A DNA stretch of 44,798 nucleotides, from the sequence record LT960609; one strand, 5' to 3'. The translations under genes and the position numbers were made by a program. The notes beneath the pieces were generated by a model. The model saw only the letters and a program-made list of their open reading frames with translations, searched no databases and had not been told where the DNA came from. Shown here in pieces: positions 552 to 44,743 of this stretch (the stretch's first letter is position 1; each line of letters opens with the position of its first letter). The DNA is from Escherichia phage SECphi18.

Positions 552-2816
552 ATGAGCTTAATTAAATTCGCTGTAACAAGACCCGCTAAAAAAGGCGAAA
601 AAGCCAGGGCGGAAAACTTCCAGATGACCACCGATGAATTTTTCGAATTTATCAAAGATGCGAAAGAAATCTCCTCGGTGCATATCAACAAGACGGAAGA
701 TAAAGCCGAGTATGCGCGCCGCAAGCGTAAGGCCGACGGCATCGTGGCTTATACCAGTGACGGATTGCGTCGTAAGACCAGTGCGGTGGACCGCTCGATC
801 CTGTTCTTTGATATCGACCGTACCGACACCCGCACCCTACGCCGCTGCCGTAAGGCGTTCATTGACGCGGGTCTGGAGCACGTCTTCCACACCACTACCG
901 GCGACCGCCACCCGCTGAAAGGCGGCACGCGTTGCGCCCGTTTCCTGGTGTTGACCGACAAGCCTGTACCGGCGGAAGACCTGGGCCGCGTCCAGTATGC
1001 ACTATTACACCAACTGGGTCTGTCAGATGTGGACTTCGACGATTGCACGAAAGACACAAACCGCCTTATGTACCTGCCACATCAGCAGTCTGTCGTTAAG
1101 TGTCACTACGGAAAACGTGCCCGCGTCCGTCGTCTGCTTCGCCTGGCTGATACGCTGGGAGTGGAGAAAGAGGAAGTGCGCCGCGAACTAACCCAGGGCG
1201 ATGACGGCGTGGCGGACGGAATTCTGGATTGGTGCTTCCAGGCAGGATTCGAACCGCTGTCGTCTGGTCGTGGTTATGAAGTGCCATGCCCGAACGAACA
1301 TCTGCATAGTGGCGAAGGGTCCACCGCAATCATGGTTAAGGATGGCGAGATCCGTTTCAAGTGTATGCACACCGGCAACGAGTGTTGCTCGGAACTGAAC
1401 AGACACCAGCATCTGGCGCTACGTCTTATCGGGATACCTGACCACCTGAACGTCGAACCACACAACATGTCACGTAAGCAAATCGCCGCCATCCTTCCAG
1501 GACTGGACGACGAGGAAGTGGAATCCTGCTATGAACATATCGTTGATGCAGTTGGCGACGGCGAAGAATACGGCGTGTGCACCGATGCCGACCTGGACAA
1601 CGAGCCGGTTGCGCTGTTCAGTAAGCACGACCCGATCATCGAGGGGTTGATTAACTTTAAATCGACCTGGTACATGGCGGGTGAGTCGAATATCGGTAAG
1701 TCTTTCTACGTGCTGGGGCAGATGGGTGCGGTTGCCGCGGGTATTCCGTTTGGCGGTGCGAAGGTCGTCCAGTCCCATTGCTTCTATTTCGATGCGGAAG
1801 GCGGCGAAGCCTCCAACCAGCGTAAGGAAGCATTGCAGATTAAATACGAGCACGACCTGGACAAGCTGCACATTATAGACCTGCAGTCACGCGGCTGGGA
1901 TATCACCAGCAAATCCGGCTTGCGCGAAGTTATCAGCTTTATCAACCGCACCGCTAACGGCGAACCGGTGGGCCTGGTGGCGTTCGACTCACTCAACCAG
2001 ACGGTTGCGTTGCGGTCCGCCGATGCTAAACCGTTCGACGAGAACAACGCCAGCGATATGGGTGAAGTGGTCAAAGCGCTGAAGGCCATCGCGGAAAATA
2101 CAGGTGGCAGTGCGGGCGTCATCCACCACCCGGCTAAAGGTGCAAACGGCAGCAGAACGCCACGCGGGTCCGGCGCGCTTCATGGTGCTGTCGATTCCGC
2201 GTTCTTCCTGGAACAACCGGACGACAACCAGCCCGGACAATTGAACCTGTATCACGAAAAGGCGCGTAACGGCATCAAGCAAGCGCCGCGCGGATTCGTC
2301 CTGCTCAAGTGCAAAGTTAAGGTGGATCTCCGCAAGTCCGAAGCGTTCGAAGCCCACCAGTCCACCAGCACCGGGCCAGACTTCGGCGATGTGGTTGCCG
2401 GTTGGGACGTCAAGCCGATCGCATCCACGCCTCGCGACGAGACTCTTTACCTCGTACCGGTCGCCCTGGCACCGTTCGCCATCGAACAGGCGAAGGCGGC
2501 GGGCAAGGCCGCAGTTAAGGAAGAGAACACCGCCGGACCGCGCAACGAAAAAGAGAAAGTGCTTTATGCGGCACTGGAAAAACTGATGGAAGATAACCCG
2601 GACCATACTGGATTCAGTAAATCGGCAATTGTCCGCCAGGCCGGACTCGCGAAAGGTGGCACATCGACGAAGGCAATCGACGATATGGTCGAGCGCGGCG
2701 TGCTTGGTTTTTATACAGATCCGCACACCGGGGCAATCTATGGGTCGTCGAATATCGTCATCAAAACGAATATACCCATCACGCTTTCGGCGACCGACGA
2801 CGACTTAAAAGATTAA
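552..2816 (+). CDS. DNA primase-helicase (RecA/DnaB-like ATPase with N-terminal primase-like domain)
   Basis: 754 aa; Walker A-like GESNIGKS in a RecA-like core; acidic N-terminal domain with FFDIDRTD. Confidence 0.6.
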   Translation: MSLIKFAVTRPAKKGEKARAENFQMTTDEFFEFIKDAKEISSVHINKTEDKAEYARRKRKADGIVAYTSDGLRRKTSAVDRSILFFDIDRTDTRTLRRCRKAFIDAGLEHVFHTTTGDRHPLKGGTRCARFLVLTDKPVPAEDLGRVQYALLHQLGLSDVDFDDCTKDTNRLMYLPHQQSVVKCHYGKRARVRRLLRLADTLGVEKEEVRRELTQGDDGVADGILDWCFQAGFEPLSSGRGYEVPCPNEHLHSGEGSTAIMVKDGEIRFKCMHTGNECCSELNRHQHLALRLIGIPDHLNVEPHNMSRKQIAAILPGLDDEEVESCYEHIVDAVGDGEEYGVCTDADLDNEPVALFSKHDPIIEGLINFKSTWYMAGESNIGKSFYVLGQMGAVAAGIPFGGAKVVQSHCFYFDAEGGEASNQRKEALQIKYEHDLDKLHIIDLQSRGWDITSKSGLREVISFINRTANGEPVGLVAFDSLNQTVALRSADAKPFDENNASDMGEVVKALKAIAENTGGSAGVIHHPAKGANGSRTPRGSGALHGAVDSAFFLEQPDDNQPGQLNLYHEKARNGIKQAPRGFVLLKCKVKVDLRKSEAFEAHQSTSTGPDFGDVVAGWDVKPIASTPRDETLYLVPVALAPFAIEQAKAAGKAAVKEENTAGPRNEKEKVLYAALEKLMEDNPDHTGFSKSAIVRQAGLAKGGTSTKAIDDMVERGVLGFYTDPHTGAIYGSSNIVIKTNIPITLSATDDDLKD

Positions 2817-2891
2817 ATTCTGCGCGCATTGGTTGCCGATATGGGAATTCCCATATCGCTAAAAGATTAAATTTTGCGTGCATTGGTTGCC
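2805..2891. repeat. Two copies of a ~33-nt unit (ttaaaagattaaattNtgcgNgcattggttgcc) spaced 54 nt apart
   Basis: Copy 1 overlaps the primase-helicase stop codon; copy 2 starts 54 nt downstream; each ends in an ATTGGTTGCC motif. Confidence 0.6.
2837..2858. promoter_or_regulatory. 22-bp perfect palindrome (candidate protein-binding site)
   Basis: cgatatgggaattcccatatcg is its own reverse complement; sits between the two repeat copies. Confidence 0.5.
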
Positions 2892-2976
2892 ATTTTGGGT
2901 GTTTTTATCCGGTCGTATTGGTTGCCGTGTCGTGTAAATATAGTGAATAGTTATGCAATAAAACTGCATAAACTAA

Positions 2977-3078
2977 GCGGGACAAAAAGCGGGACAAACA
3001 TGAGGCGGGACAAAGCGGGACAGCACCCCTGTCCCGCCCCGGATGACGCGGCCTGGCGAGGAGCGGGACAGCGGGACA
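2977..3078. repeat. Iteron cluster A: six direct GCGGGACA copies plus one inverted copy
   Basis: GCGGGACA at about 2977, 2989, 3005, 3015, 3063, 3071; inverted TGTCCCGC at about 3030; non-coding. Confidence 0.7.
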
Positions 3079-3138
3079 GCACCCCAGTCTTTCAGACTAG
3101 ACGGGGTCAGTGGCCCCCCCCCGTCTGAGACTGAATAA
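3064..3138 (+). other. Conserved ~75-nt structured element, copy A (paralog at 19504-19578)
   Basis: cgggacagcgggacagcaccccagtctttcagactagacgggg...ccccgtctgagactgaataa; hairpins agtct/agact and agacgggg/ccccgtct. Confidence 0.55.
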
Positions 3139-3294
3139 AATCCGGGAGATTGCAAAATACACGGCAGCATGATGCGGATTGCGGTCGTTGATGAACTAGG
3201 CAACCAATGCGGGGTGTATTATGCTGAGTGAAAAATGCGGTTTGCAGTTACAGCAGATAGCGATCGACTTTTTCATGCGCGTGATTAATATTGG

Positions 3295-4048: not shown

Positions 4049-4606
4049 ATGAAATTACTATTCCGCCGTAAAGCAGATGGCCGTATTCTGAAGCCGATCC
4101 AGACCCTGGATTCCTACGTCCGCCTGCAAAACGCGGCAGGCAATCGGGTGTGGCGGGCGCCGAAACACACGCTGCCGCAGTTCTTCGACGTACTCACTCA
4201 CGATATCGAGCGCGGAGATGTGCTGCGTGATATCCGCGACGGTAGTATGTGGATCGTTGAATATGTCGGTCTTCATGGTCTGCGTATGCAATCCCGCAAG
4301 GATGGCGTAGCAGGTATGACTTACTTCGGGCTGGTCAACTACGAGCGAGTGGGCCGAAAATACTGCCTTCGTGACCGCCAGCCGCATGAGCGCGTTGAGT
4401 TCCGCAAGTCACAGCCCGCCTACGCAACCTACGACTCCCACCAGGTGCAGGCGAGGATGAAACGCGCCGCACACGAAATCGTCAATCGCTTTGATGCCGT
4501 GACGAATGCACAGCGCCATGCGCAGGAATACGGCGTGGGGTTTATCCGTGTCGAACCAGACGGCAGCATGAATGCCATCGACCCGCGCTCGGTGATTCTG
4601 AAATGA
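4049..4606 (+). CDS. Hypothetical protein
   Basis: 185 aa ORF; RBS gaggagacagag before ATG. Confidence 0.5.
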   Translation: MKLLFRRKADGRILKPIQTLDSYVRLQNAAGNRVWRAPKHTLPQFFDVLTHDIERGDVLRDIRDGSMWIVEYVGLHGLRMQSRKDGVAGMTYFGLVNYERVGRKYCLRDRQPHERVEFRKSQPAYATYDSHQVQARMKRAAHEIVNRFDAVTNAQRHAQEYGVGFIRVEPDGSMNAIDPRSVILK

Positions 4607-4743
4607 GTGCGTCTATCCGTGATATGCTGATGCACAACCGCTTTGAGATAGGCGGTCGGGTGTTTCGCAATTACTTCGTGGCGCGTGCCTGGGCGCGCCA
4701 TATTGGCAAACCAGAGGGGGCAATACGATGCTACACGATTTAA
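4603..4743 (+). CDS. Small hypothetical protein (46 aa)
   Basis: ATG overlaps upstream stop (ATGA); clean 46-codon frame ending at TAA; below the ORF-track length cutoff. Confidence 0.25.
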   Translation: MSASIRDMLMHNRFEIGGRVFRNYFVARAWARHIGKPEGAIRCYTI

Positions 4744-5015
4744 TATATTGGTTTGGATTGGGGTGCGCGACACTCGTTGTTACGGTGCTGGCGCTGTTGG
4801 TATGGGTATTCCTGATTTGGCCCGCGGTGGAAGCTGCCAGTATTACCCGCATGACGTTTCAGATATACAAGCGCCGTGGAATCACGGAGCACCCGACCAG
4901 GTTGCGCATGTGGTGGCTATGGTATCGCGATATGATAGGGGGCCGGGTGTTCGAGGCCGTCCGATCGGAAGGGTGGGAGTGGAAAGGCGTCGGCAAGTGG
5001 TCCATTTTCGATTAA
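4728..5015 (+). CDS. Small membrane protein
   Basis: 95 aa; RBS gaggggg; hydrophobic N-terminal segment LGCATLVVTVLALLVWVFLIW. Confidence 0.45.
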   Translation: MLHDLIYWFGLGCATLVVTVLALLVWVFLIWPAVEAASITRMTFQIYKRRGITEHPTRLRMWWLWYRDMIGGRVFEAVRSEGWEWKGVGKWSIFD

Positions 5016-5032
5016 TTATGCAAGCGTGATAT

Positions 5033-5067
5033 AGTCCCAGTGAGATAAAACTTACTGGGACTTTTTT
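5033..5067 (+). terminator. Intrinsic terminator abutting the holin start codon
   Basis: agtcccag-14 nt loop-ctgggact followed by T6, then ATG at 5068. Confidence 0.5.
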
Positions 5068-5358
5068 ATGGATAAGCTAAACGAGTGGTTATTCGCCCTT
5101 GCGTGTCTTGCTGGTGGCTTCGTAGGCGCACGCATTCATGGCGAGGCAACGAAAGGGCCGCTAAACTTCGTTTTATATATCGTGGTTGGCTTCCTGTGCG
5201 CCATATTTGGTGCGCCAGCTATCGCCGAGTGGGCGGGCTTATCCGGCGAGCGCACTGTCGCCGGTTTGGGCTTCGTAACTGCAATCTTCTGGATGCCAAT
5301 AGCCGCCCGGATCAGGGAGACTATTGAGTCGTTCCGACTTCCGGGGGGCGCAAAATGA
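5068..5358 (+). CDS. Holin-like membrane protein
   Basis: 96 aa; two or three predicted TM segments; immediately upstream of the endolysin. Confidence 0.5.
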   Translation: MDKLNEWLFALACLAGGFVGARIHGEATKGPLNFVLYIVVGFLCAIFGAPAIAEWAGLSGERTVAGLGFVTAIFWMPIAARIRETIESFRLPGGAK

Positions 5359-5603
5359 TTATCTCCGTCCTGTTGTTTGTTATCATAGGGGCTTCGTCCC
5401 TGTTTAACGTGTATGCGCCGTCCGTCCGGGATGGCATTTTCGGTCGGGTGTTATATCTGTTAACGGCAATGGTCTGTCTTATCGGATTGTTGCAAACAGG
5501 AGACGTATCAGATACCACCTGGACCGCGTTAATCTGGCTGTTTGCATTGCGCACCCTGCGTAATGCTGTTTTGAATGGGGTAAAACATGCGATTCAGCGA
5601 TAA
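5355..5603 (+). CDS. Second small membrane protein (holin/antiholin-like)
   Basis: 82 aa; ATG overlaps upstream stop; hydrophobic segments. Confidence 0.4.
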   Translation: MIISVLLFVIIGASSLFNVYAPSVRDGIFGRVLYLLTAMVCLIGLLQTGDVSDTTWTALIWLFALRTLRNAVLNGVKHAIQR

Positions 5604-6078
5604 CGGTCTACGATTTACGGCAGCATGGGAGACTTTCAGCCCAGTGCCGTATTTCGCGACTAAGAAAGAGCAGGCCCGTGGCCTGTACACCTGGGGCTAT
5701 GGTCACACCGGCACTAATCCGCCGCGGAGCATTACCCGTGCGGAAGCACTGGAGCTACTCAAGCGAGACGTGGCGTATGCCGAAAACTGGGTGAACAAGT
5801 ACGCACACCCGAGCATCAATCAGGCGCAATTCGACGCGCTGGTGGACCTGGTTATCAATGCTGGTCCAGGTCCGATCATGCCGGACGACGTCGCGGGTGA
5901 TTTCGACGATGCGATCCGCCTGGGTGACTGGGCGAAGGTACGGGCTACACTGCCACAATTCCGCAAGCAAGGCGGGGTAGTGCTCAAGGGGCTTGTCCGT
6001 CGTGCAATCGGCAGACAGGCGCTATTCGATGGTAAGCAGTGGGACGTTGCCGAGAGAATCGGGCGAAACGCAGCATAA
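5587..6078 (+). CDS. Endolysin, lysozyme-like (GH24-type muramidase)
   Basis: 163 aa; N-terminal AWETFSPVPY...TWGYGHTG resembles the phage lysozyme catalytic motif. Confidence 0.65.
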   Translation: MRFSDNGLRFTAAWETFSPVPYFATKKEQARGLYTWGYGHTGTNPPRSITRAEALELLKRDVAYAENWVNKYAHPSINQAQFDALVDLVINAGPGPIMPDDVAGDFDDAIRLGDWAKVRATLPQFRKQGGVVLKGLVRRAIGRQALFDGKQWDVAERIGRNAA

Positions 6079-6094
6079 TACGGGGTAACACAGT

Positions 6095-6355
6095 ATGTTA
6101 AAAAGTATTCTTGATCATAACGCCGACGCGCTCGCTGCGCTGGCTAAAACCGAAGACCCTGGCGCACGCGCTATCATCGCGGATACGATCAGCCATGCGG
6201 GGGTCTTCGATGCGAAGTTGCCCAGCCCGCCGGAAAGTAAGCCGGTGACTAGTGCATCCGTAACTATCACACCGGAATCCGCCGCAGTTGGTGCGAATGC
6301 CACCGCTTCGGTTGCGGTCCAGCCACCCGACGCGACTAACAAGGCAGGGAAGTAG
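6095..6355 (+). CDS. Hypothetical protein (Ala/Pro/Ser-rich)
   Basis: 86 aa ORF directly after the endolysin. Confidence 0.35.
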   Translation: MLKSILDHNADALAALAKTEDPGARAIIADTISHAGVFDAKLPSPPESKPVTSASVTITPESAAVGANATASVAVQPPDATNKAGK

Positions 6356-6514
6356 GTGTCGTCGAATCCTGCCTGTGCGGCGATCGATCAGACTACCGGA
6401 GAAATCACAGCCCAAGCGGCAGGTAGCGCCCACATCTTTTGGGTGGCCTCCGATGGTAGCGGGGCAATGGCGTCCGCCATCTTCACCGTAACGGAAGCAG
6501 GAGAATAAAACCAC

Positions 6515-7763: not shown

Positions 7764-7789
7764 AGCCCGCCGATTTGGTGGGCTTTTTT
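7764..7789 (+). terminator. Intrinsic terminator
   Basis: agcccgcc-gattt-ggtgggct (one G-U pair) followed by T6. Confidence 0.5.
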
Positions 7790-7803
7790 GTGCCTGTTAT
7801 AAT
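7775..7803 (+). promoter_or_regulatory. Sigma70-like promoter with extended -10, upstream of terminase genes
   Basis: -35 TTGGTG, 17-nt spacer, TGtTATAAT. Confidence 0.45.
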
Positions 7804-7873
7804 CCACCTTAGATGGCAGGGCCGTCTCCTATGTTGCCGATGGTCGGCGCATATGAACAAAAGGGCATATATC

Positions 7874-8425
7874 ATGGCAGAAATCAAAGTTAAGGGCCGA
7901 CGCGCCAAACTGGACGGACGAGTAGCAGTAACCCCGCGCCGTAAACCAGGCGAGCAAACTGAGCATACCAATCTCGGACCTGAAATCGAGTACGGAAAGC
8001 GCCGTAAAGGCGGCAAATGTGGACGCCCTACTGACTACCGATCCGTTTACTGCGACCAGCTTCGCCGCTATTTTGCCGACGCCGACGCCTGGCAGGTCAA
8101 CTACTCCGATAAAGGCGCTGCGCAAGTAATCCCCCGCAACAAAATGCCAACCTTCGGTCGATTTGCCGCGGAAATCGGTGTGGGCGTAGCTTGCCTGTAT
8201 CGCTGGGCGCGCGCACATGAGGAGTTCGCCGAGGCAATGGCTGACGCTATGGAATTGCAGAAAACCTTCCTGATGGAAGCTGGCGGCGTGACCATCGCGG
8301 CGGGCTTCGCCACGTTCCTGCTTAAAGCCAACCACGGCGTCCGCGACGATACCCCACTGGATGACGACGAAGATGATAACGGCGACGTCGTTGTCGAACC
8401 TACCGGCAAAGGCCAGGGTGAGTAA
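7874..8425 (+). CDS. Terminase small subunit
   Basis: 183 aa from internal ATG with RBS aaaggg; HTH-like FAAEIGVGVACLYRWARAHEEF; directly upstream of and overlapping the large subunit. Confidence 0.55.
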   Translation: MAEIKVKGRRAKLDGRVAVTPRRKPGEQTEHTNLGPEIEYGKRRKGGKCGRPTDYRSVYCDQLRRYFADADAWQVNYSDKGAAQVIPRNKMPTFGRFAAEIGVGVACLYRWARAHEEFAEAMADAMELQKTFLMEAGGVTIAAGFATFLLKANHGVRDDTPLDDDEDDNGDVVVEPTGKGQGE

Positions 8426-38356: not shown

Positions 38357-40648
38357 TTACTTGCGGTATCGATACATACAATCGCCTTCGGCGGCAAGTG
38401 GGAAGCCTTTCGCCCAAATAGGCAGGTCGCACATCAGCGCGCAAAGCTCCTCGGTGGTGTAGTCGTCGGTGTCCGGCACTTCGGTGACCAATTCATCGTG
38501 CACTGACAGGACGATCTCATATCCGGCGGCTTCAACGCCAGGCATGGACCACGCGAGAATATCGCGGCACAACGCCTGTACGATGTTCTCCGTTAGTTTG
38601 CCGCCGTAGGTGTACTGGAAACCCCACTGGCGCGTCGTCTGATTCTCGCCCTGGTATTTGATGCGTGTGCTGGTGCGCTTCTTGCCGGTGTCTTCGTCGA
38701 TCTCGGTCGTGACAGACAGCGCGATACCGGGATAGCTCATGATGCGACCTGACGGCAACTCAATTTTCAACCACCACCCCGCAGCGTTCGGGTCGTCGCG
38801 CTCCTCGTCGAAGGTTGGGTCGTGCTTCGCCTTCGTGCGCACAATCTTGAGCGCTTTTCTACCGTCTGGGCGAACGTTAGCGCCAGCCCAGTAGGCTTTG
38901 CCCGGATTGCGGATTGCACACAACACCGCGTCCTCAAGCTCGGCCCAAAATGCTACGGTCTTCGGGTGGGCCTCACGCCACATGCGTTTGATCGCGTCGC
39001 ATGTCAGCCATACATTTTTAGGCAGTATGTAGGTTGGGCGCTCGTCTTTCTTGCCAGGCTTCGGCGGGCGCTTCGCTTCGTTAATGCGGGCGTATTCATA
39101 ACCCCGTTTAGCCGCTGCCCAAATGTGATCCGGGAACGTGCCTTTCATGACGTCCGCCATAGTGTAAAGGTCGAGGCCCAGGTTTTTAGCGAACTGTAAG
39201 AACGCCGCCACGCCGCCACCATAGCCCAGCCCCAACTCACACGCCTTACCGATCTGGCGCAAGTCTTTGCGGTTGGCTTTGATGTAATCCGGGTCAAGGC
39301 CGAACATCTTACCGGCAGTCTCGCAATAGATATCGCGCCCGGCCTTAAACACCATTAGCGCGGTTTTCTCGCCAGCGATCCAGGCAAGGCCGCGCCCTTC
39401 CACGTTGGAGTAGTCAGCTACGACAAACTTCTTGCCCTTTGCAGGGATAATGCACCCGCGAACGGTCGAGGCGGTCAGCTTCGATATGTCGTACGCCCAG
39501 TGCGCTGTCCCGCGTAACAGGGAATTGATGCCGTTGGTGAGCATGTGCGACCGCACCCAAAACGAGACGTCGCTCTCGCCTTCGCGGCGCTTAATCTTCC
39601 CTTCGTGGTCGTCGCTATACTCGCCGCGTGCCAGGTTTTGCGGCTGGAAGCCTTTACCAGCCCAGCGTAGCGTGCGCTTTGCGCCGCCATACTGAATACA
39701 CCCACGGCGACGACCATCGGCAGACAGGCCATTAACGAGCGGATTGTATTTAGTCGATGCCGTTGATGACGCGCCGAGGCGCATTTCGATAAGCGCTTTG
39801 CCTTCGTCGGGGAAGTCCGGGTCTTCAAGCAAGTCGTTCAGCGTGGATTTCTGCGCGTTGTGGATCGTGAACGCCGGGGCAATATCACGCAGAATCGGCA
39901 GGAAGTCGTTGCCGGTCAGCTTGCCGCCAAACCGCTCCCATGCCTCTTCCTTCAATTCTTCCTTATGCGCCCGCACCGCCTTGATCGCGGCGTTCGCCAG
40001 GTCAACGTCCACATAGAAGCCTCGGTCGTTAATAATCTGGTCGATGAGCAGGATTTCGTCTTCCTTCGGTGAGTTGCCCCAGTCCGGTATGCGCCAGTAG
40101 ACTTCACGCATGGCAACAATATCCAGCGCGGCATAGCGCAGAAATTTGGCCCACTCTTCTGGGTGAGTCTCGCGAGTGTAGCGGCGGATTTTGTAGGTCT
40201 TAGGGGTAGGCTTACAGAATCGTTTAATCAGCGCCTTGCCCGCCTTATCTTTCGCGTGCTCTGCGTCAACGCCCAGTACCTGACACTGCATATCGAGGCT
40301 ACCGGGCAGCGCGTGGCGAAAGGCCATAATCATGGTGTCTTCGATCTGGCTTACCGGCAGGTCAATGCCCCACTTCTCTCGGATAACCAGGCGGTCGAAC
40401 AGGAGGCCGTTAGCCATCACTATTTTAGCTTTCTTACGAGATACACGGCGGAGCGCCTTGCGCAGTTCACGCGGCATTGTGGGGGATTCAGTGGCGTCCC
40501 ATGTCTGCACGCGGCCCTCGTCGATGGCGTATGTGCAAATCATAATCTCGGTCGATGGGTGTTCTGCGTAGGCGTAAGCGCCTACTTTCTTCAGGCCCAC
40601 ATCGCTAAATGTCTCGGTGTCGAGAAACAGACGTTCGAAGTCTTTCAT
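38357..40648 (-). CDS. Family A DNA polymerase with 3'-5' exonuclease domain
   Basis: 763 aa; exo motif LFLDTETFS; polymerase motif C SVHDELV; RBS gagga. Confidence 0.85.
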   Translation of the reverse strand: MKDFERLFLDTETFSDVGLKKVGAYAYAEHPSTEIMICTYAIDEGRVQTWDATESPTMPRELRKALRRVSRKKAKIVMANGLLFDRLVIREKWGIDLPVSQIEDTMIMAFRHALPGSLDMQCQVLGVDAEHAKDKAGKALIKRFCKPTPKTYKIRRYTRETHPEEWAKFLRYAALDIVAMREVYWRIPDWGNSPKEDEILLIDQIINDRGFYVDVDLANAAIKAVRAHKEELKEEAWERFGGKLTGNDFLPILRDIAPAFTIHNAQKSTLNDLLEDPDFPDEGKALIEMRLGASSTASTKYNPLVNGLSADGRRRGCIQYGGAKRTLRWAGKGFQPQNLARGEYSDDHEGKIKRREGESDVSFWVRSHMLTNGINSLLRGTAHWAYDISKLTASTVRGCIIPAKGKKFVVADYSNVEGRGLAWIAGEKTALMVFKAGRDIYCETAGKMFGLDPDYIKANRKDLRQIGKACELGLGYGGGVAAFLQFAKNLGLDLYTMADVMKGTFPDHIWAAAKRGYEYARINEAKRPPKPGKKDERPTYILPKNVWLTCDAIKRMWREAHPKTVAFWAELEDAVLCAIRNPGKAYWAGANVRPDGRKALKIVRTKAKHDPTFDEERDDPNAAGWWLKIELPSGRIMSYPGIALSVTTEIDEDTGKKRTSTRIKYQGENQTTRQWGFQYTYGGKLTENIVQALCRDILAWSMPGVEAAGYEIVLSVHDELVTEVPDTDDYTTEELCALMCDLPIWAKGFPLAAEGDCMYRYRK

Positions 40649-40815
40649 TGCTTAATCCTCACTACGGCGTCAGCGCTGCCGATCATGGAGAAGATGCCGT
40701 CTGACAGGGCGATCTCTTCGCCGTTGTTGCGAATCTCGGCAACCGTGAAATATTCCCCCAGTAGCTTGGACCATACTTGCATTCCGACTTTTACTTCGCT
40801 GGCTTTAATACGCAT
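40645..40815 (-). CDS. Small hypothetical protein
   Basis: 56 aa from internal ATG; 4-nt overlap with the polymerase start. Confidence 0.35.
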   Translation of the reverse strand: MRIKASEVKVGMQVWSKLLGEYFTVAEIRNNGEEIALSDGIFSMIGSADAVVRIKQ

Positions 40816-40825
40816 TTTTCGTTGT

Positions 40826-40850
40826 CCTATTAAAAAGCCCGCATTAAGCG
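40826..40850 (-). terminator. Intrinsic terminator on minus strand
   Basis: Minus strand: agcccgc-ttaat-gcgggct followed by ttttaat. Confidence 0.45.
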
Positions 40851-40873
40851 GGCTTGAATAGTGGGCTTTGCCC

Positions 40874-41659
40874 TTAACGGCGGCGACGTTTACGTGGTGC
40901 TTCGTCTTCGTCGTCGTCCTCATCTTCGTCATCGCGGGACTTGCGGCGCTTGCGAGGTTTTTCATCTTCCTCATCATCGTCGTCGTCATCGCGGCGCTTG
41001 GATTTCTTGGACTTGCGCGGCTTGTCATCTTCATCATCGTCATCACGACGATTTGACTTCTTAGCCTTGCGCGGTGCTTCGTCTTCGTCGTCGTTGTCCA
41101 GGTCTTCATCGGAGCAAGAAGACCCGCCACCCCCGAAGGCTTCACCGTCATCACGGAAGCGTAAACCCAGCAAGCCAGCACCGAGTCCCTTGCCGTTGGT
41201 ATTGTTCCACGCCCAGATATCAAGGGACACGTTGCAATAACAACCGGAGTAGATCTCCTGGCCTTCGATCTCGTCGCCTTCTACTGTCAGACCCTGTTCG
41301 GTCTGCTTCTCACCGAGTGACGTTTGAATGTTTGGCTGTTTGAACGATTTAGCGTTGATGTACAACATGCCTTCGAATTCTTCAGTCACTTCGTCGCGCT
41401 CGTCACCGTCGCGGACTGCGCATTCCTTCGAATCCTGGGCGTAGTGGCGGTCCATCCACTTATCGGCATTCTTCTCGGATTTCAGCTTGTCGGTGAGCAC
41501 TGCGCGCGCTGCCGCTTCCACTTTGTCCACCTGCGGATCTTCTTTATCCAGAAGAATCACGGCACGATATGCCGGTTTTTGTCCATCCTGTTTAGGGGTG
41601 TCACGTTCCCAAATTTTCAGGAAGCATACGCGCACATTTTTCAGGTTGACTTTAGCCAT
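40874..41659 (-). CDS. ssDNA-binding-like protein with repetitive acidic/basic C-terminal tail
   Basis: 261 aa from internal ATG with RBS gaggaa; C-terminal repeats of DDDDEDDKPRKSKKSKRR type. Confidence 0.4.
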   Translation of the reverse strand: MAKVNLKNVRVCFLKIWERDTPKQDGQKPAYRAVILLDKEDPQVDKVEAAARAVLTDKLKSEKNADKWMDRHYAQDSKECAVRDGDERDEVTEEFEGMLYINAKSFKQPNIQTSLGEKQTEQGLTVEGDEIEGQEIYSGCYCNVSLDIWAWNNTNGKGLGAGLLGLRFRDDGEAFGGGGSSCSDEDLDNDDEDEAPRKAKKSNRRDDDDEDDKPRKSKKSKRRDDDDDDEEDEKPRKRRKSRDDEDEDDDEDEAPRKRRRR

Positions 41660-41714: not shown

Positions 41715-41753
41715 CTTGGTTGCTAATCTACTTGGTTGCGCCTAAGCGGTCAA
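41715..41753 (-). promoter_or_regulatory. Sigma70-like promoter with two operator-motif copies
   Basis: Minus strand: -35 TTGACC, 17 nt, -10 TAGATT; GCAACCAAG copies in the spacer and at the start site. Confidence 0.45.
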
Positions 41754-41992
41754 GCATTTTCATTAAAAAGATTTCTGGTAACGTAGTTGGTGGCGTTCTC
41801 GATCCAGCTTAACGGCGGGCGGTTAATGTTCTTCTCCACCCAATCGACGGCCGCTTCGCTATAGCCGTCATCCAGCCAGCGGGTCGGATGGCGAATCATC
41901 CAGGCAACCATTAACACGCCTTGCACGCAATGCAGGATAAAGCCCAGCGCGCCGAGCAAAAACATCAATAAGATTGCGAATACTTTATTCAT
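41750..41992 (-). CDS. Small membrane protein
   Basis: 80 aa; RBS gaggac; N-terminal TM FAILLMFLLGALGFIL. Confidence 0.4.
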   Translation of the reverse strand: MNKVFAILLMFLLGALGFILHCVQGVLMVAWMIRHPTRWLDDGYSEAAVDWVEKNINRPPLSWIENATNYVTRNLFNENA

Positions 41993-43415
41993 TGCTTAAG
42001 TCCTCGTCAGTGGCTTCAGACCACGCAGGGCGCGGGTCGTCAATTGGTGCTATTACAGGTTTAGCCGGTGCGCGCGTGATTTTATCACACAACTTCGCCC
42101 ACACTTTCGGCTTCTCGTCCTTAAGTACCTTCTCGGCATCCGTAGGACTGAGCAATGTTTCTTTGTACATCACATCGCGCTTGATCCGGGCCTTCGTGAA
42201 GATCTCAATCACTTCGCTCTCGTCCGCCCACTTGCGGATCCCTTCCTTACCGGCAACCATCTTGAGGCCCAACGATTCGCCATCTCCCGCCATGACCGCC
42301 TTGAATACCGCGGACTCGATAGCCTTGATGTGCTGGCGCATTGCGTCAAGACCTTCATATGCCTTGCGCAGTTCCGCCGCGCTCATGGCGCCTGGGGCCG
42401 CTTCCTTCTTACCACGCTTCGCACGTCGTGCCGCTTTCCTGGCTTCGCGGGCCATATTGCGATCGTGATTGGCGCATTCCTCCTCTGTCGCAATACTAGC
42501 GTCGTCGCCCAGGTCTTCGTCGGTTGCCGTTGGAGGTGTCATCGTGTCGATTGCGGCCTTCGCGCGGGCACTACACTGATCCGCAAATCGGCACCACTGG
42601 CACGCATCAACGCTGGGACGGAAGTCGGCACGGGTAAGTCCCTTCTTGCCTCGGGAATACGCCTCCAGTGCGGCAATAGCGCGCTTGGATGCAAACTTCG
42701 CGAATATCTCCAGCGCTTCTACCGAAATATCCCACTCCGACGCCCCTCCGCAATACGGCTGGAAGATAACCAGGCGAACGGTCGTAATGTCGTACATAGT
42801 TTGCAGCTTGCGCAGCAGTCCGAGCGCGTACAACATAAGCTGTTTGTTTTCTTTCGCCTCGACCTTATGCCGCCCGGTCTTCAGGTCGCCAACAATCAGC
42901 ATGTACGTCCCATCGGTCTTTTTCATGACCATGACCATATCGGCAGTACCGAACGTTTTAATCCTGTTGCCGTCGATCTCGTAGCCTGAGTGAAGGACGC
43001 GGGTAAGATCGGCGCGCATCTCAAGCTGGACAAACTCCGCCACTTCGAGGAGCGGTCGCCAGTGGTCGATGTACGCGTCGCACTGTTTCACCATGTCGTC
43101 GTTGACCAGTACGCCGCCTTTCGGTGCTTTAGGGTGCGCCTTTACCGGCCCCTTTCCTTCGTTCTCGACGTAGCACCCTTTATACGTCTTCGCGGTTATC
43201 AGCTTCTCGCCGGCGATAATGCGGTTTAGCACCACCTCCGATACGGTGTGCATACTCGTACCGTTAATCGCCGCTTGCCCTGATTCGTTCGGGATATCTT
43301 TTTCCACCACCAGGGCGGCGGGGCAATCCATCCATTTTTTAGCACCGGATGGGCCGAGTAATGAGTGTTCCGTGTTGCTGCCGGATTGCGTTTTACGTTT
43401 TGGTTTAATCGCCAT
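41985..43415 (-). CDS. DUF2800-type PD-(D/E)xK nuclease (RecB/Cas4-like)
   Basis: 476 aa; N-terminal HSLLGPSGAKKWMDCPAAL signature; Cys cluster CQWCRFADQC. Confidence 0.55.
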   Translation of the reverse strand: MAIKPKRKTQSGSNTEHSLLGPSGAKKWMDCPAALVVEKDIPNESGQAAINGTSMHTVSEVVLNRIIAGEKLITAKTYKGCYVENEGKGPVKAHPKAPKGGVLVNDDMVKQCDAYIDHWRPLLEVAEFVQLEMRADLTRVLHSGYEIDGNRIKTFGTADMVMVMKKTDGTYMLIVGDLKTGRHKVEAKENKQLMLYALGLLRKLQTMYDITTVRLVIFQPYCGGASEWDISVEALEIFAKFASKRAIAALEAYSRGKKGLTRADFRPSVDACQWCRFADQCSARAKAAIDTMTPPTATDEDLGDDASIATEEECANHDRNMAREARKAARRAKRGKKEAAPGAMSAAELRKAYEGLDAMRQHIKAIESAVFKAVMAGDGESLGLKMVAGKEGIRKWADESEVIEIFTKARIKRDVMYKETLLSPTDAEKVLKDEKPKVWAKLCDKITRAPAKPVIAPIDDPRPAWSEATDEDLSNE

Positions 43416-44033: not shown

Positions 44034-44552
44034 TTAATCTTCCAATTCGAAATAAGTTTCGACGATTTCTTTTAGCTCTTTGTGGAAGTCTTCGACGTCG
44101 TCATCTTCCAGCTTGGCGATTGATTTGATCTCGAACGACTCCAGCAGGTCGTCGAATTCGTCGTTCGCATCGTCGTCATCGCCACCGGCAATAATCGCGG
44201 CATACTGTTTGATCTCGTCGCGCATCTCCGCCAGCGGATCGGCATCTTTCTTACCTTTGCCTTTCGCCGGTGCTTTTTTAGCCTTAGCCGGTTTTTCGTC
44301 TTCGGCTTCTTCATCGTCGTCATCTTCTACGACTTCTTTTTTGGCCTTACCCTTTGCCGGCGCTTTTTTAGCCTTAGCCGGTTTTTCGTCTTCGGCTTCA
44401 TCGTCGTCATCTTCGACAACTTCTTTTTTGGCCTTAGACGGCTTCTTGTCTTCCTGCTTACCAACGGCAGCGCCAACGGTTTCATAATGCTTTGCAATGG
44501 TTTCCAGTGCTACTACGCCGCGAGTGATCAGGTTTACGATTTGCTCAAACAT
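44034..44552 (-). CDS. Acidic protein with internal ~90-bp tandem duplication
   Basis: 172 aa from internal ATG with RBS ggagat; repeated KPAKAKKAPAKGK-KEVVEDDDDE blocks. Confidence 0.5.
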   Translation of the reverse strand: MFEQIVNLITRGVVALETIAKHYETVGAAVGKQEDKKPSKAKKEVVEDDDDEAEDEKPAKAKKAPAKGKAKKEVVEDDDDEEAEDEKPAKAKKAPAKGKGKKDADPLAEMRDEIKQYAAIIAGGDDDDANDEFDDLLESFEIKSIAKLEDDDVEDFHKELKEIVETYFELED

Positions 44553-44743
44553 GGTATATCTCCGATTGGTTAAGTTTAGGTGTCGGCAGTTAACTTCGTC
44601 GGTGGCCTTAACATATTGCCAGGTTACGCGTTCTCCCGTTCGGGTAGTGGACCTGGTTATATAATCACGGTTGGGAATCCTGACACTTCGATCCGGCCCC
44701 TGCGTTGCCCCTCTCCAGTTTGCGTCCTGCATCCTGTCGACGG

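What the first reader, a model, noticed from the sequence alone, without database searches (positions are those of the whole stretch)
40874..41659. SSB-like protein with repetitive charged C-terminal tail
The C-terminal third is built from imperfect ~57-bp DNA repeats encoding alternating acidic and basic blocks. Such repeats are prone to length variation and could tune partner-protein interactions.
Basis: partly seen in the sequence, partly recalled or inferred. Interest (0 to 1): 0.45.

Follow-up and report, generated by a model that had tools for sequence, protein, structure and literature searches.

The report
Phage SSB with acid–base repeat tail

Summary
Window 40874-41659, minus strand, encodes a 261-aa T7-gp2.5/Enc34-type SSB (PF10991, 110 bits; the AF2 model matches 5odl, 4klk and 1je5). 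Its last 78 residues are four units of [D/E run]-[A/K]PRK-[K/R run], coded by 66, 54, 57 and 57 bp.

The protein is identical to the published phage SECphi18 "predicted SSB (Gp2.5 family)", a Retron-Eco8 trigger, so the gene itself is already known.

What looks new is the tail.
- Unit number ranges from 1 to 4 among Dhillonvirus genomes, and short direct repeats in this window predict three of the natural deletion alleles exactly.
- The sequence is nevertheless under purifying selection (pN/pS 0.11).
- The first acidic block (SDEDL...) is nearly constant and the terminal PRKRRRR is invariant.
- About 90% of family representatives have a plain acidic tail with a hydrophobic tip.
- The SDEDL motif recurs at the C-termini of this phage's exonuclease and helicase-primase. 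SSB tails and exonuclease C-termini resemble each other phage by phage in ten phages (P=6e-5).

My reading is inferred, not shown. A shared acidic docking motif is followed by an SSB-specific electrostatic extension whose internal units are dispensable spacers. I class it as a new variant of a known kind, of moderate interest.

The parts
40874..41659 (-). [quoted passage not shown]
41126..41659 (-). OB-fold ssDNA-binding domain, residues 1-178 (T7/Enc34 type)
   Evidence: PF10991 covers residues 3-193. AF2 pLDDT is >93 up to about residue 170. Foldseek hits: 4klk, 5odl, 5odj, 4jg2, 1je5. W149, F13 and K104 align with Enc34 W150, Y30 and R112.
41114..41134 (-). Gly/Ser hinge GGGGSSC, residues 176-182, between the OB domain and the tail
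41099..41113 (-). Proximal acidic motif SDEDL, residues 183-187. [DE][DE]DL lies at the start of the tail in 53 of 118 close homologues. The same motif occurs at the C-termini of the exonuclease and the helicase-primase.
   Evidence: AF2 places a short helix at residues 184-187
41045..41110 (-). Repeat unit 1 (residues 184-205): DEDLDNDDEDE-APRKAKKSNRR
40991..41044 (-). Repeat unit 2 (residues 206-223): DDDDEDD-KPRKSKKSKRR
40934..40990 (-). Repeat unit 3 (residues 224-242): DDDDDDEEDE-KPRKRRKSR
40877..40933 (-). Repeat unit 4 (residues 243-261): DDEDEDDDEDE-APRKRRRR. The terminal PRKRRRR is invariant in all in-frame Dhillonvirus alleles read.
41073..41094 (.). First copy of a 22-nt exact direct repeat (ACGACGACGAAGACGAAGCACC on the coding strand). 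Recombination with the second copy removes 177 bp and gives exactly the 1-unit allele of phage welsh.
40896..40917 (.). Second copy of the 22-nt exact direct repeat
41725..41753 (-). Sigma-70-like promoter of the SSB gene (TTGACC, 17 nt spacer, TAGATT). Published Retron-Eco8 escape mutations 41725 A>G and 41752 T>C hit the last base of the -10 and the second base of the -35.
40828..40855 (-). Terminator-like hairpin (AAGCCCGC-UUAAU-GCGGGCUU followed by a U run) just after the SSB stop codon
   Evidence: Fold energy -24.6 kcal/mol, z=-4.9. A terminator is annotated here in related records. The consensus scan did not pick it up.
41997..42011 (-). TDEDL motif 3 residues before the stop of the DUF2800 PD-(D/E)XK exonuclease (gene 41985-43415)
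42510..42524 (-). Internal TDEDL(GDD) in the exonuclease, followed by acidic and then basic (RKAARRAKRGKK) segments
2793..2807 (+). TDDDL motif 2 residues before the stop of the replicative helicase-primase (gene 552-2816)

Best explanation
What is shown. The gene encodes the phage's replication and recombination ssDNA-binding protein, a T7-gp2.5/Enc34-type OB-fold SSB. It sits in the conserved module of DUF2800 exonuclease, SSB and family-A polymerase. Its C-terminal 78 residues are predicted to be disordered and have a modular anatomy:
- a Gly-rich hinge;
- a nearly constant acidic motif, SDEDL plus a D/E run;
- zero to three internal acid-base units, each punctuated by x-P-R/K;
- an invariant Arg-rich end, PRKRRRR.
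Unit number changes by recombination between short direct repeats, and alleles with 1 to 4 units occur in deposited Dhillonvirus genomes.

What is inferred.
(a) The proximal acidic motif is the functional equivalent of the acidic SSB tip. It would dock on a common receptor, either the concave beta-sheet or cleft of a neighbouring SSB, or basic patches on the polymerase, as in T7 and Enc34. The helicase-primase and the exonuclease would address the same receptor through look-alike C-terminal peptides.
(b) The K/R blocks, above all the terminal one, would neutralise or mask the acidic blocks in the free protein and contact nucleic acid or acidic partners once the protein is on ssDNA. That would add cooperativity and annealing capacity.
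(c) The internal units would act as length and valency spacers that are nearly neutral in number but constrained in composition.
For: Family and fold: PF10991 at 110 bits against a cutoff of 26, phrog_112, and PDB sequence hits 4klk, 4jg2 and 5odj. The AF2 core has pLDDT >93 and Foldseek finds 5odl, 4klk and 1je5.

Context: DUF2800 exonuclease upstream and PolA downstream. The same module holds distant long-repeat homologues and is described in PMC8093625.

Identity with published work: the protein equals the SECphi18 SSB. The Retron-Eco8 escape coordinates 41494 (T56P), 41725 and 41752 map onto this window. Co-expressing the SECphi4 orthologue with Retron-Eco8 is toxic. PMC13402713 states that earlier work showed SECphi4 SSB binds the retron msdDNA.

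Tail disorder: pLDDT 50-63.

Copy number: alleles with 1-4 units; 13 of 60 sampled records are at least 51 bp shorter. Direct repeats of 22, 12 and 10 nt predict the welsh, JL1 and L006 alleles exactly.

Constraint: pN/pS is 0.11 in the tail against 0.07 in the core, and 0.04 in the last 12 codons. 92% of 440 acid-to-base junctions in homologues carry a Pro within 3 residues, against 2.6% Pro later in the basic block.

Shared motif: [ST]D[DE]DL occurs 4 times in 59 ORFs against 0.06 expected, and all four are in the SSB, the exonuclease and the helicase-primase. It is conserved at helicase-primase and exonuclease C-termini in Guernseyvirinae and Eiauvirus although the flanks have diverged. SSB tail and exonuclease C-terminus resemble each other within each phage: the same-phage score sum is 290 against 220 +/- 16 when permuted (P=6e-5), or P=3.6e-4 on 8 lineages. 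In Enc34 the SSB, exonuclease and primase all end in D-[DE]-D-E-V, and in YeP6 the SSB and exonuclease both end in AESLI.

Precedent: in the Enc34, DUF2815 and gp2.5 crystals the tail lies in a neighbour's concave sheet (842 A2 buried), and deleting the Enc34 tail unmasks dsDNA binding.
Against: - No biochemical or genetic test of this tail exists. None of the 12 SECphi Retron-Eco8 escapers maps to it, and the T7 tail is dispensable for Retron-Eco8 activation.
- Phage welsh carries a single unit, so the internal units cannot be essential.
- Two records, phage 22664B1 and contig protein P0008, have a frameshifted and completely different tail. If these are real, the whole tail may be dispensable.
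- In the SSB the shared motif is internal, about 75 residues from the end. In the exonuclease and helicase-primase it is C-terminal, so they may not be read by the same pocket.
- The resemblance test rests on only 10 phages. The phage's own exonuclease is the best match for only 2 of 10 SSB tails, because poly-acidic tails cross-score.
- Two Enc34 DNA-stacking residues are not conserved by alignment: Y156 aligns with N155 and Y37 with T21.
- The AF2 tail is low-confidence, so no contact can be read from the model.
Confidence: 0.6

Rival explanations
1. The repeats are selectively neutral low-complexity expansion. Slippage and recombination in a GA-rich, D/E/K/R-coding tract inflate a simple acidic SSB tail. 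Only overall charge matters, and the units have no role of their own.
For: Unit number varies from 1 to 4 among deposited phage genomes, with many independent deletion junctions. Frameshifted tails exist in two records. No defence-escape mutation maps to the tail.
Against: Tail pN/pS is 0.11, close to the core's 0.07. Synonymous sites between units are randomised while the amino-acid pattern is kept. The acid / x-P-[RK] / base architecture recurs in homologues with only 30-40% identity in the OB domain. The terminal PRKRRRR is invariant and the first acidic block nearly so. A neutral expansion of an acidic tail would not need matched basic blocks.
Confidence: 0.2
2. The blocky polyampholyte tail is a multivalent self-association module. 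Acidic blocks of one molecule pair with basic blocks of the next. This drives highly cooperative SSB filaments or condensate-like replication and recombination foci, and unit number sets the valency.
For: Kappa is 0.56 and 82% of tail residues are charged. Up to about 9 basic blocks occur in distant homologues. A second protein of the same operon carries tandem acid-base repeats (44034-44552). Disordered tails drive cooperativity in PRD1 P12 and are implicated in it for gp2.5. From general knowledge, segregated-charge disordered regions promote coacervation.
Against: One-unit alleles are the norm in Guernseyvirinae and occur in Dhillonvirus, so high valency is not required. The tail has net charge -10 rather than being neutral. 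Nothing was observed directly.
Confidence: 0.13
3. Tail length variation is an immune-evasion trait. SSB is a common trigger of abortive-infection systems, and changing the tail alters recognition.
For: Dhillonvirus SSB triggers Retron-Eco8. Several other defences respond to phage SSBs. The tail is the most variable part of the protein in length.
Against: All coding escape mutations in SECphi4, SECphi6 and SECphi18 lie in the OB domain (T56P, D25_P29dup). The rest reduce promoter activity, and none is in the tail. Deleting the T7 tail does not affect Retron-Eco8 activation.
Confidence: 0.05
4. The ORF is not an SSB. It has an unrelated fold, or the real product is the alternative reading frame through the repeat (ORF 40645-41223).
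For: The +1 frame of the tail is open and runs into the next gene. Two database proteins use it.
Against: The family, fold and context matches are strong. The open frame is expected from GAN/AAR/CGN codon composition. All 18 other alleles read are in the D/E/K/R frame.
Confidence: 0.02

Closest known systems
Enterobacter/Hafnia phage Enc34 ORF6 (PF10991/DUF2815; PDB 5odj, 5odk, 5odl)
   Same: Same Pfam family and same predicted OB-fold variant. Same gene order of exonuclease, SSB and PolA. Unstructured, net-acidic C-terminal segment. Enc34's SSB, exonuclease and primase all end in D-[DE]-D-E-V, the same tail-sharing principle found here.
   Different: Enc34's tail is about 29 residues, 16 of them D/E with no basic blocks, and ends in a hydrophobic residue. 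The tail here is 78 residues with four K/R blocks and an Arg-rich end. About 22% identity. Two DNA-stacking tyrosines are not conserved by alignment.
Bacteriophage T7 gp2.5
   Same: Structural homologue (1je5, Foldseek E=2e-6). It is both an SSB and an annealing protein. Its acidic tail binds its own DNA cleft, the polymerase and the helicase-primase. From memory, the T7 helicase-primase gp4 also carries an acidic C-terminal tail that docks on the polymerase, which parallels the shared TDEDL motif here.
   Different: The T7 tail is 26 residues and ends in the essential Phe232. Here there is no aromatic or hydrophobic tip, the end is RKRRRR, and the acidic docking motif is internal. About 13% identity.
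SSBs of Guernseyvirinae (Jerseyvirus, Kagunavirus, Cornellvirus, Serratia phage Otaku)
   Same: Closest clade outside Dhillonvirus (37-58% identity). Same module. Same acid-then-Arg tail logic, for example ...SVDDLEDDEEDEAPRRERRRR*. Same T-E-E-D-L ends on the exonuclease and helicase-primase.
   Different: Jerseyvirus and Kagunavirus have one unit and Otaku has three. The four-unit state is typical of Dhillonvirus.
T4 gp32 (basic N-terminal B domain with the (Lys/Arg)3(Ser/Thr)2 'LAST' motif, plus acidic C-terminal A domain); comparison from memory
   Same: Works alike in principle. A basic K/R/S-rich peptide for cooperativity and an acidic peptide for autoinhibition and partner recruitment flank an OB core. 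PRKSKKSKRR resembles a LAST-type motif.
   Different: Unrelated sequence family. In gp32 the two charged arms are at opposite ends and are not repeated. Not tested here.
E. coli SSB (disordered linker plus DDDIPF tip)
   Same: An OB domain followed by a disordered linker and a partner-binding acidic motif. Linker length and composition modulate cooperativity (literature cited).
   Different: Different family; there was no PF00436 hit. That protein is a tetramer with a Gly/Gln/Pro-rich, uncharged linker, and its acidic-hydrophobic motif is at the very end.
Low-complexity basic repeats that modulate DNA binding, such as the PAKKA repeats of Mycobacterium smegmatis Ku (PMC3553676), and eukaryotic arginine-rich mixed-charge domains (from memory)
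   Same: Repetitive charged disordered tails appended to a nucleic-acid-binding core. Copy number varies between relatives.
   Different: Ku's repeats are purely basic. Eukaryotic mixed-charge domains alternate charge residue by residue (RD/RE/RS) rather than in blocks of 7-11 residues. There is no homology.

Membership tests
PF10991 Enc34_ssDNA-bd (DUF2815), T7-type SSB | Sequence match above Pfam's gathering score | tested here: met
   110.3 bits against a cutoff of 26, E=1.1e-31, residues 3-193. phrog_112 E=3e-55.
PF10991 Enc34_ssDNA-bd (DUF2815), T7-type SSB | OB-fold variant shared by Enc34 ORF6, 4klk, 4jg2 and T7 gp2.5 | tested here: met
   AF2 model with core pLDDT >93. Foldseek hits: 4klk 9e-13, 5odl 2e-12, 4jg2 5e-11, 1je5 2e-6. 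This is a prediction, not a solved structure.
PF10991 Enc34_ssDNA-bd (DUF2815), T7-type SSB | Aromatic and basic ssDNA-contact residues of Enc34 (W150, Y156, Y30, Y37, R112) | tested here: inconclusive
   W149, F13 and K104 align with W150, Y30 and R112. Y156 aligns with N155 and Y37 with T21, although W151 and W17 lie two to four residues away.
PF10991 Enc34_ssDNA-bd (DUF2815), T7-type SSB | Preferential binding of ssDNA | not testable with these tools
   Indirect only. The SECphi4 orthologue triggers Retron-Eco8, and PMC13402713 states that earlier work showed it binds the msdDNA.
PF10991 Enc34_ssDNA-bd (DUF2815), T7-type SSB | Unstructured, net-acidic C-terminal segment | tested here: met
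   pLDDT 50-63 from residue ~181 onward (72 for residues 171-180). Net charge -10 over 78 residues.
PF10991 Enc34_ssDNA-bd (DUF2815), T7-type SSB | Tail purely acidic and ending in an acidic-hydrophobic tip, called characteristic of prokaryotic and phage SSBs in PMC5686142 | tested here: not met
   The tail has four K/R blocks and ends in RKRRRR. In the OB-only search, 134 of 149 representatives end in a hydrophobic residue and only 10 end basic. This is a departure in the appendage, not in the domain that defines the Pfam family.
duf2800-gp2.5-polA replication/recombination module (gp2.5-like single-strand annealing proteins; Lopes 2010, PMC8093625) | SSB gene lies between a PD-(D/E)XK DUF2800 exonuclease and a family-A DNA polymerase, with no separate ssb gene | tested here: met
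   Exonuclease at 41985-43415 (PF10926, 225 bits) and PolA at 38357-40648. The module is described. A separate ssb gene was not searched for exhaustively.
duf2800-gp2.5-polA replication/recombination module (gp2.5-like single-strand annealing proteins; Lopes 2010, PMC8093625) | Single-strand annealing activity | not testable with these tools
   Carried only by family annotation.
Bacterial-type SSB (PF00436) | Match to the SSB family profile | tested here: not met
   No PF00436 hit at E<=0.01.
Single alpha-helix (ER/K) charged domains | Long stable helix of alternating E and K/R blocks | tested here: not met
   DSSP on the AF2 model shows no helix beyond residues 184-187. The tail is Asp- and Pro-rich (26 D against 11 E, one Pro per unit).

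The most novel reading that the evidence does not exclude
The duf2800-SSB-polA module may be organised by a lineage-specific 'shared-tail code'. The SSB, the exonuclease and the primase/helicase would carry co-evolving look-alike acidic peptides that compete for one receptor. In the Dhillonvirus and Guernseyvirinae clade the SSB would have converted its copy into a switch by appending Arg-rich acid-base units. These would mask the peptide off DNA and expose it on DNA, or drive tail-to-tail cooperative assembly. This would replace the canonical acidic-hydrophobic SSB tip.
Probability: 0.3. Interest if true: 0.65.

Novelty: new variant of a known kind. Interest (0 to 1): 0.42.

Why it matters
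[quoted passage not shown] Here a large and heavily sampled clade of enterobacterial siphophages ends its SSB in arginines, and in Dhillonvirus it inserts up to three further acid-base units. That clade covers most of the roughly 800 phage records with a tblastn match.

These phages (SECphi4, SECphi6, SECphi18 and the BASEL Dhillonviruses) are workhorses of anti-phage defence research. Their SSB and DUF2800 exonuclease are known retron triggers. Knowing which parts of the tail are constant, which are disposable and which are shared with other replisome proteins therefore makes a direct test possible of how a minimal phage replisome and recombination machine is wired.

Natural 1- to 4-unit alleles provide a ready-made allelic series. 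If the tail proves inert, the result is still useful. It would document a constrained yet length-polymorphic disordered region and warn annotators about frameshifted calls in this gene.

Tried and rejected
- IMG/VR scan for relatives. I switched to the annotated phage collection.
- Recent-duplication hypothesis, tested by resampling synonymous codons. Rejected, P=0.66.
- Alternative-frame ORF 40645-41223 and the many + strand ORFs across the repeat. These are composition artefacts.
- The consensus terminator scan missed the hairpin after the stop codon. I folded it directly instead.
- Literature searches for mixed-charge, polyampholyte or basic-repeat SSB tails and for Dhillonvirus SSB found no description of this tail. 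The DARNA preprint deals only with T7, T4 and T5 SSBs.
- Single alpha-helix reading of the tail. Rejected: no helix is predicted and the tail is rich in Asp and Pro.
- Immune-evasion reading. Checked against the published escape-mutant table, where no mutation lies in the tail.
- The full-length homology search is biased toward look-alike tails by its 5-residue word filter. I therefore repeated it with the OB domain alone, without a word index, to obtain unbiased frequencies.
- Complex prediction for SSB with partner peptides could not be run.
Full report
WHAT IS THERE

The finding's coordinates are exactly one minus-strand gene. The ATG is at 41659, the TAA at 40876-40874, and the product is 261 aa. 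A longer ORF from GTG 41680 is listed mechanically. However, every homologue and the published CDS start at MAKVNL, and a GAGGA lies 9-13 nt upstream of the ATG.

The gene is preceded by a sigma-70-like promoter at 41753-41725. It is followed by a strong hairpin and U run at 40855-40828 (-24.6 kcal/mol, z=-4.9).

CHECK OF THE OBSERVATION

Residues 184-261 parse into four units of the form acidic run, [A/K]PRK, basic run. They are coded by 66, 54, 57 and 57 bp.
- Tandem Repeats Finder reports period 54 with score 147, and the repeat finder finds 45-nt and 54-nt families.
- The tail is 82% charged with net charge -10.
- Charge segregation (kappa 0.56) exceeds all 2000 shuffles, which average 0.11 +/- 0.05.

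At positions where two units have the same amino acid, codon identity is 30/65 against 31.4 +/- 4.3 expected from codon usage. The DNA repeat is therefore only the shadow of a protein repeat, not a recent duplication.

IDENTITY

- The N-terminal 180 residues match PF10991 (Enc34_ssDNA-bd, formerly DUF2815) at 110 bits, phrog_112 (gp2.5-like SSB and annealing protein), and the PDB chains 4klk, 4jg2 and 5odj.
- An AF2 model built on 62 homologues has pLDDT >93 up to about residue 170 and 50-63 in the tail.
- Foldseek returns the DUF2815 structures, the Enc34 SSB-ssDNA complex and T7 gp2.5.
- Enc34's W150, Y30 and R112 align with W149, F13 and K104. Y156 and Y37 align with N155 and T21, with other tryptophans two to four residues away.
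- The neighbours are a DUF2800 PD-(D/E)XK exonuclease (41985-43415) and a family-A polymerase (38357-40648). This is the duf2800-gp2.5-polA module described in PMC8093625.

SOURCE OF THE WINDOW

The window is a Dhillonvirus: 153 phage records match at 85-98%. [quoted passage not shown] (bioRxiv 10.1101/2022.08.27.505566).

That table's SECphi18 coordinates fit this window exactly:
- 41494 is the first base of codon 56 (T56P).
- 41725 is the last T of the predicted -10 hexamer.
- 41752 is both the stop codon of the upstream 80-aa gene and base 2 of the -35 hexamer.

The gene is therefore already known as a predicted SSB and as a trigger of Retron-Eco8. Those authors did not display or discuss the tail.

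THE TAIL IN THE POPULATION

I read 20 further Dhillonvirus alleles from phage records, IMG/VR contigs and Table S2.
- Unit number is 1 in welsh (202 aa) and 2 in EP23 (224 aa).
- It is 3 in HK578, TheodorHerzl, JL1, Psq-1, GeorgBuechner, Sloth, SECphi4 and one IMG/VR contig (L006) (236-247 aa).
- It is 4 in the rest (256-265 aa).
- In a spread sample of 60 of the 153 records, 13 are at least 51 bp shorter.
- The deletion junctions differ between phages, so the events are independent.
- Exact direct repeats in this window predict three natural alleles to the residue: 22 nt spaced 177 bp gives welsh, 12 nt spaced 57 bp gives JL1, and 10 nt spaced 48 bp gives IMG/VR locus L006.

Despite this, the aligned tail is under purifying selection. 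pN/pS is 0.11 against 0.07 in the core and 0.04 in the last 12 codons. All in-frame alleles read keep the terminal PRKRRRR and a first block of the form SD[ED]DL, two or three variable residues (DN, GD or D), then D-D-E-D-[ED].

Two records, phage 22664B1 and contig protein P0008, carry a frameshifted, unrelated tail. I cannot tell sequencing error from a viable mutant.

THE TAIL IN THE FAMILY

A search with the OB domain alone, without a word index, gives an unbiased sample of 149 representatives.
- Median tail length is 25 residues.
- 134 end in a hydrophobic residue, usually after acidic ones (DDDIPF-like).
- Only 13 have any K/R block, 8 have two or more, and 10 end basic.

The mixed-charge tail is thus a minority, derived state. 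It is nevertheless widespread.
- Jerseyvirus and Kagunavirus SSBs have one unit (...DDLEDDEEDEAPRRERRRR*). Otaku and Cornellvirus have more.
- Metagenomic homologues with 30-40% identity carry up to about nine basic blocks. Many of these keep a canonical end such as DDDDVA, DDDDI or DDLPF.
- Two such proteins sit in the same exonuclease-SSB-polymerase module.
- Across homologues the unit is about 17 residues long. 92% of 440 acid-to-base junctions have a proline within three residues (xP[RK]), against 2.6% Pro later in the basic block.

The sequences in the last two points came mostly from the word-biased search and are not phylogenetically independent.

A SHARED MOTIF

Scanning the whole window for [ST]D[DE]DL gives four hits in 59 ORFs against 0.06 expected.
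- The start of the SSB tail (41099-41113).
- The exonuclease, both internally and three residues before its stop (42510-42524 and 41997-42011).
- The replicative helicase-primase (phrog_3228), two residues before its stop (2793-2807).

The C-terminal peptides are conserved in Guernseyvirinae and Eiauvirus although their flanks have diverged. Helicase-primases end in EDDDLAD, EEDDLEN, TEGDLE, TEEDLE or NSDLED. Exonucleases end in TEEDL or TEEDLE.

In other lineages the motif changes, but it changes together within each phage.
- Enc34's SSB, exonuclease and primase all end in D-[DE]-D-E-V.
- YeP6's SSB and exonuclease both end in AESLI after [DN]DF[DE].
- Locus L026 has SAKQDFKGFYAE in the SSB and SAQSDFSQFIEVE in the exonuclease.
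- Locus L027 has DADDFEDDD in the SSB and IADEFNEED in the exonuclease.

A permutation test on 10 phages gives a same-phage score sum of 290 against 220 +/- 16 (P=6e-5). With near-duplicates removed, P=3.6e-4. The sample is small, and poly-acidic tails cross-score: the phage's own exonuclease is the top match for only 2 of 10 SSB tails.

In the Enc34, DUF2815 and gp2.5 crystals, this part of the tail lies in the concave sheet of a neighbouring molecule.

MECHANISM

The following are shown:
- The SSB family, predicted fold and genomic context.
- A tail predicted to be disordered.
- Modular anatomy, copy-number polymorphism by short-repeat recombination, and purifying selection on composition.
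- A motif shared with two other replication proteins.

The following are inferred:
- The SDEDL block is the docking peptide, the equivalent of the acidic SSB tip. It is read by a common receptor, either the SSB groove or the polymerase.
- The K/R blocks, especially the invariant terminus, mask the acidic blocks off DNA. On DNA they contact nucleic acid or partners and add cooperativity or annealing.
- The internal units are spacers.

Rivals, with my confidence in each:
- Neutral low-complexity expansion: 0.2.
- Multivalent self-association or condensation: 0.13.
- Immune evasion: 0.05. The escape-mutant table argues against it.
- Not an SSB: 0.02.

COMPARISON AND NOVELTY

The gene is a member of PF10991, and the identical protein is already in the literature. 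The tail fails the "acidic tail with hydrophobic tip" criterion that the Enc34 paper calls characteristic. I therefore class it as a new variant of a known kind.

Neither the tail architecture nor the tail-sharing between SSB, exonuclease and primase turned up in the searches I could run.

I rate interest as moderate. The mechanism is untested and the internal units are dispensable. Against that, the system is experimentally tractable and already used in defence research.

Noticed in passing
whole window; check points 41494, 41725, 41752, 40759: The window's coordinates coincide with those published for phage SECphi18. The SSB, 80-aa and 56-aa protein sequences are identical, and the escape-mutation positions in Table S2 of bioRxiv 10.1101/2022.08.27.505566 fall on the expected codons. 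The window is probably the complete SECphi18 genome.
   Followed up: partly
41725-41753 (minus strand): Two published Retron-Eco8 escape mutations labelled 'intergenic' or 'stop codon of the 80-aa gene' hit the last base of the -10 (TAGATT to TAGATC) and base 2 of the -35 (TTGACC to TCGACC) of the predicted SSB promoter. These escapers probably act by lowering SSB expression. The -35 overlaps the stop codon of the upstream gene.
   Followed up: partly
44034-44552 (minus strand; probable start at M61 of ORF 44034-44732): A second protein of the same early operon (phrog_3127, unknown function, no Pfam hit) carries a tandem acid-base repeat, AKKEVVEDDDDE(E)AEDEKPAKAKKAPAKGK x2. It is followed by GGDDDDANDEFDDLLESFE, which resembles the canonical DUF2815 tail motif D-E-F-[DE]-D-L.
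   Followed up: partly
41985-43415 (minus strand), residues ~290-340: The DUF2800 exonuclease is about 100 residues longer than its Pfam profile. It contains a charged stretch, TATDEDLGDD...EEE...REARKAARRAKRGKK, that mirrors the first unit of the SSB tail. Its orthologue in Bas14 (TheodorHerzl) appears to be the 'B14T' protein reported as the trigger of retron Sen3 and described there as having a disordered C-terminal region (bioRxiv 10.64898/2026.07.14.737667). I infer the link from the name.
   Followed up: partly
40645-41223 (minus strand): The +1 frame of the repeat is open. In this window it continues through the SSB stop and the terminator hairpin, in frame into the 56-aa gene. Phage 22664B1 (MZ234008) and contig protein P0008 are annotated with tails in this frame. 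I could not decide between sequencing error and a tolerated mutant.
   Followed up: partly
40645-40815 (minus strand): A 56-aa gene (phrog_10102, unknown function) overlaps the polymerase start by 4 nt. Table S2 lists +C frameshift escapers (E21fs at 40759) in SECphi18 and SECphi6 for a defence system listed before Retron-Eco8. I did not identify that system.
   Followed up: no
40828-40855 (minus strand): A strong terminator-like hairpin lies between the SSB gene and the 56-aa gene and polymerase. This suggests SSB is expressed at a higher level than the downstream polymerase. The consensus scan missed it.
   Followed up: partly
40877-40912 (last 12 codons): Synonymous diversity among Dhillonvirus alleles drops to 0.11 in the last 12 codons, against 0.31-0.40 elsewhere in the gene. 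This may be a small-sample effect, gene conversion, or a constraint at the nucleotide level.
   Followed up: no
L037 (Enc34 568-3162, 4463-5776, 5818-6420); L034 (YeP6): In Enc34 the primase, exonuclease and SSB all end in D-[DE]-D-E-V. In YeP6 the last 19 residues of the exonuclease and the SSB align closely and both end in AESLI. I saw no mention of this in the parts of the Enc34 structure paper that I read.
   Followed up: partly
7775-8425 (+ strand), residues ~189-208: Another ORF ends with an acidic stretch (VRDDTPLDDDEDDNGDVVVE). I did not identify it.
   Followed up: no
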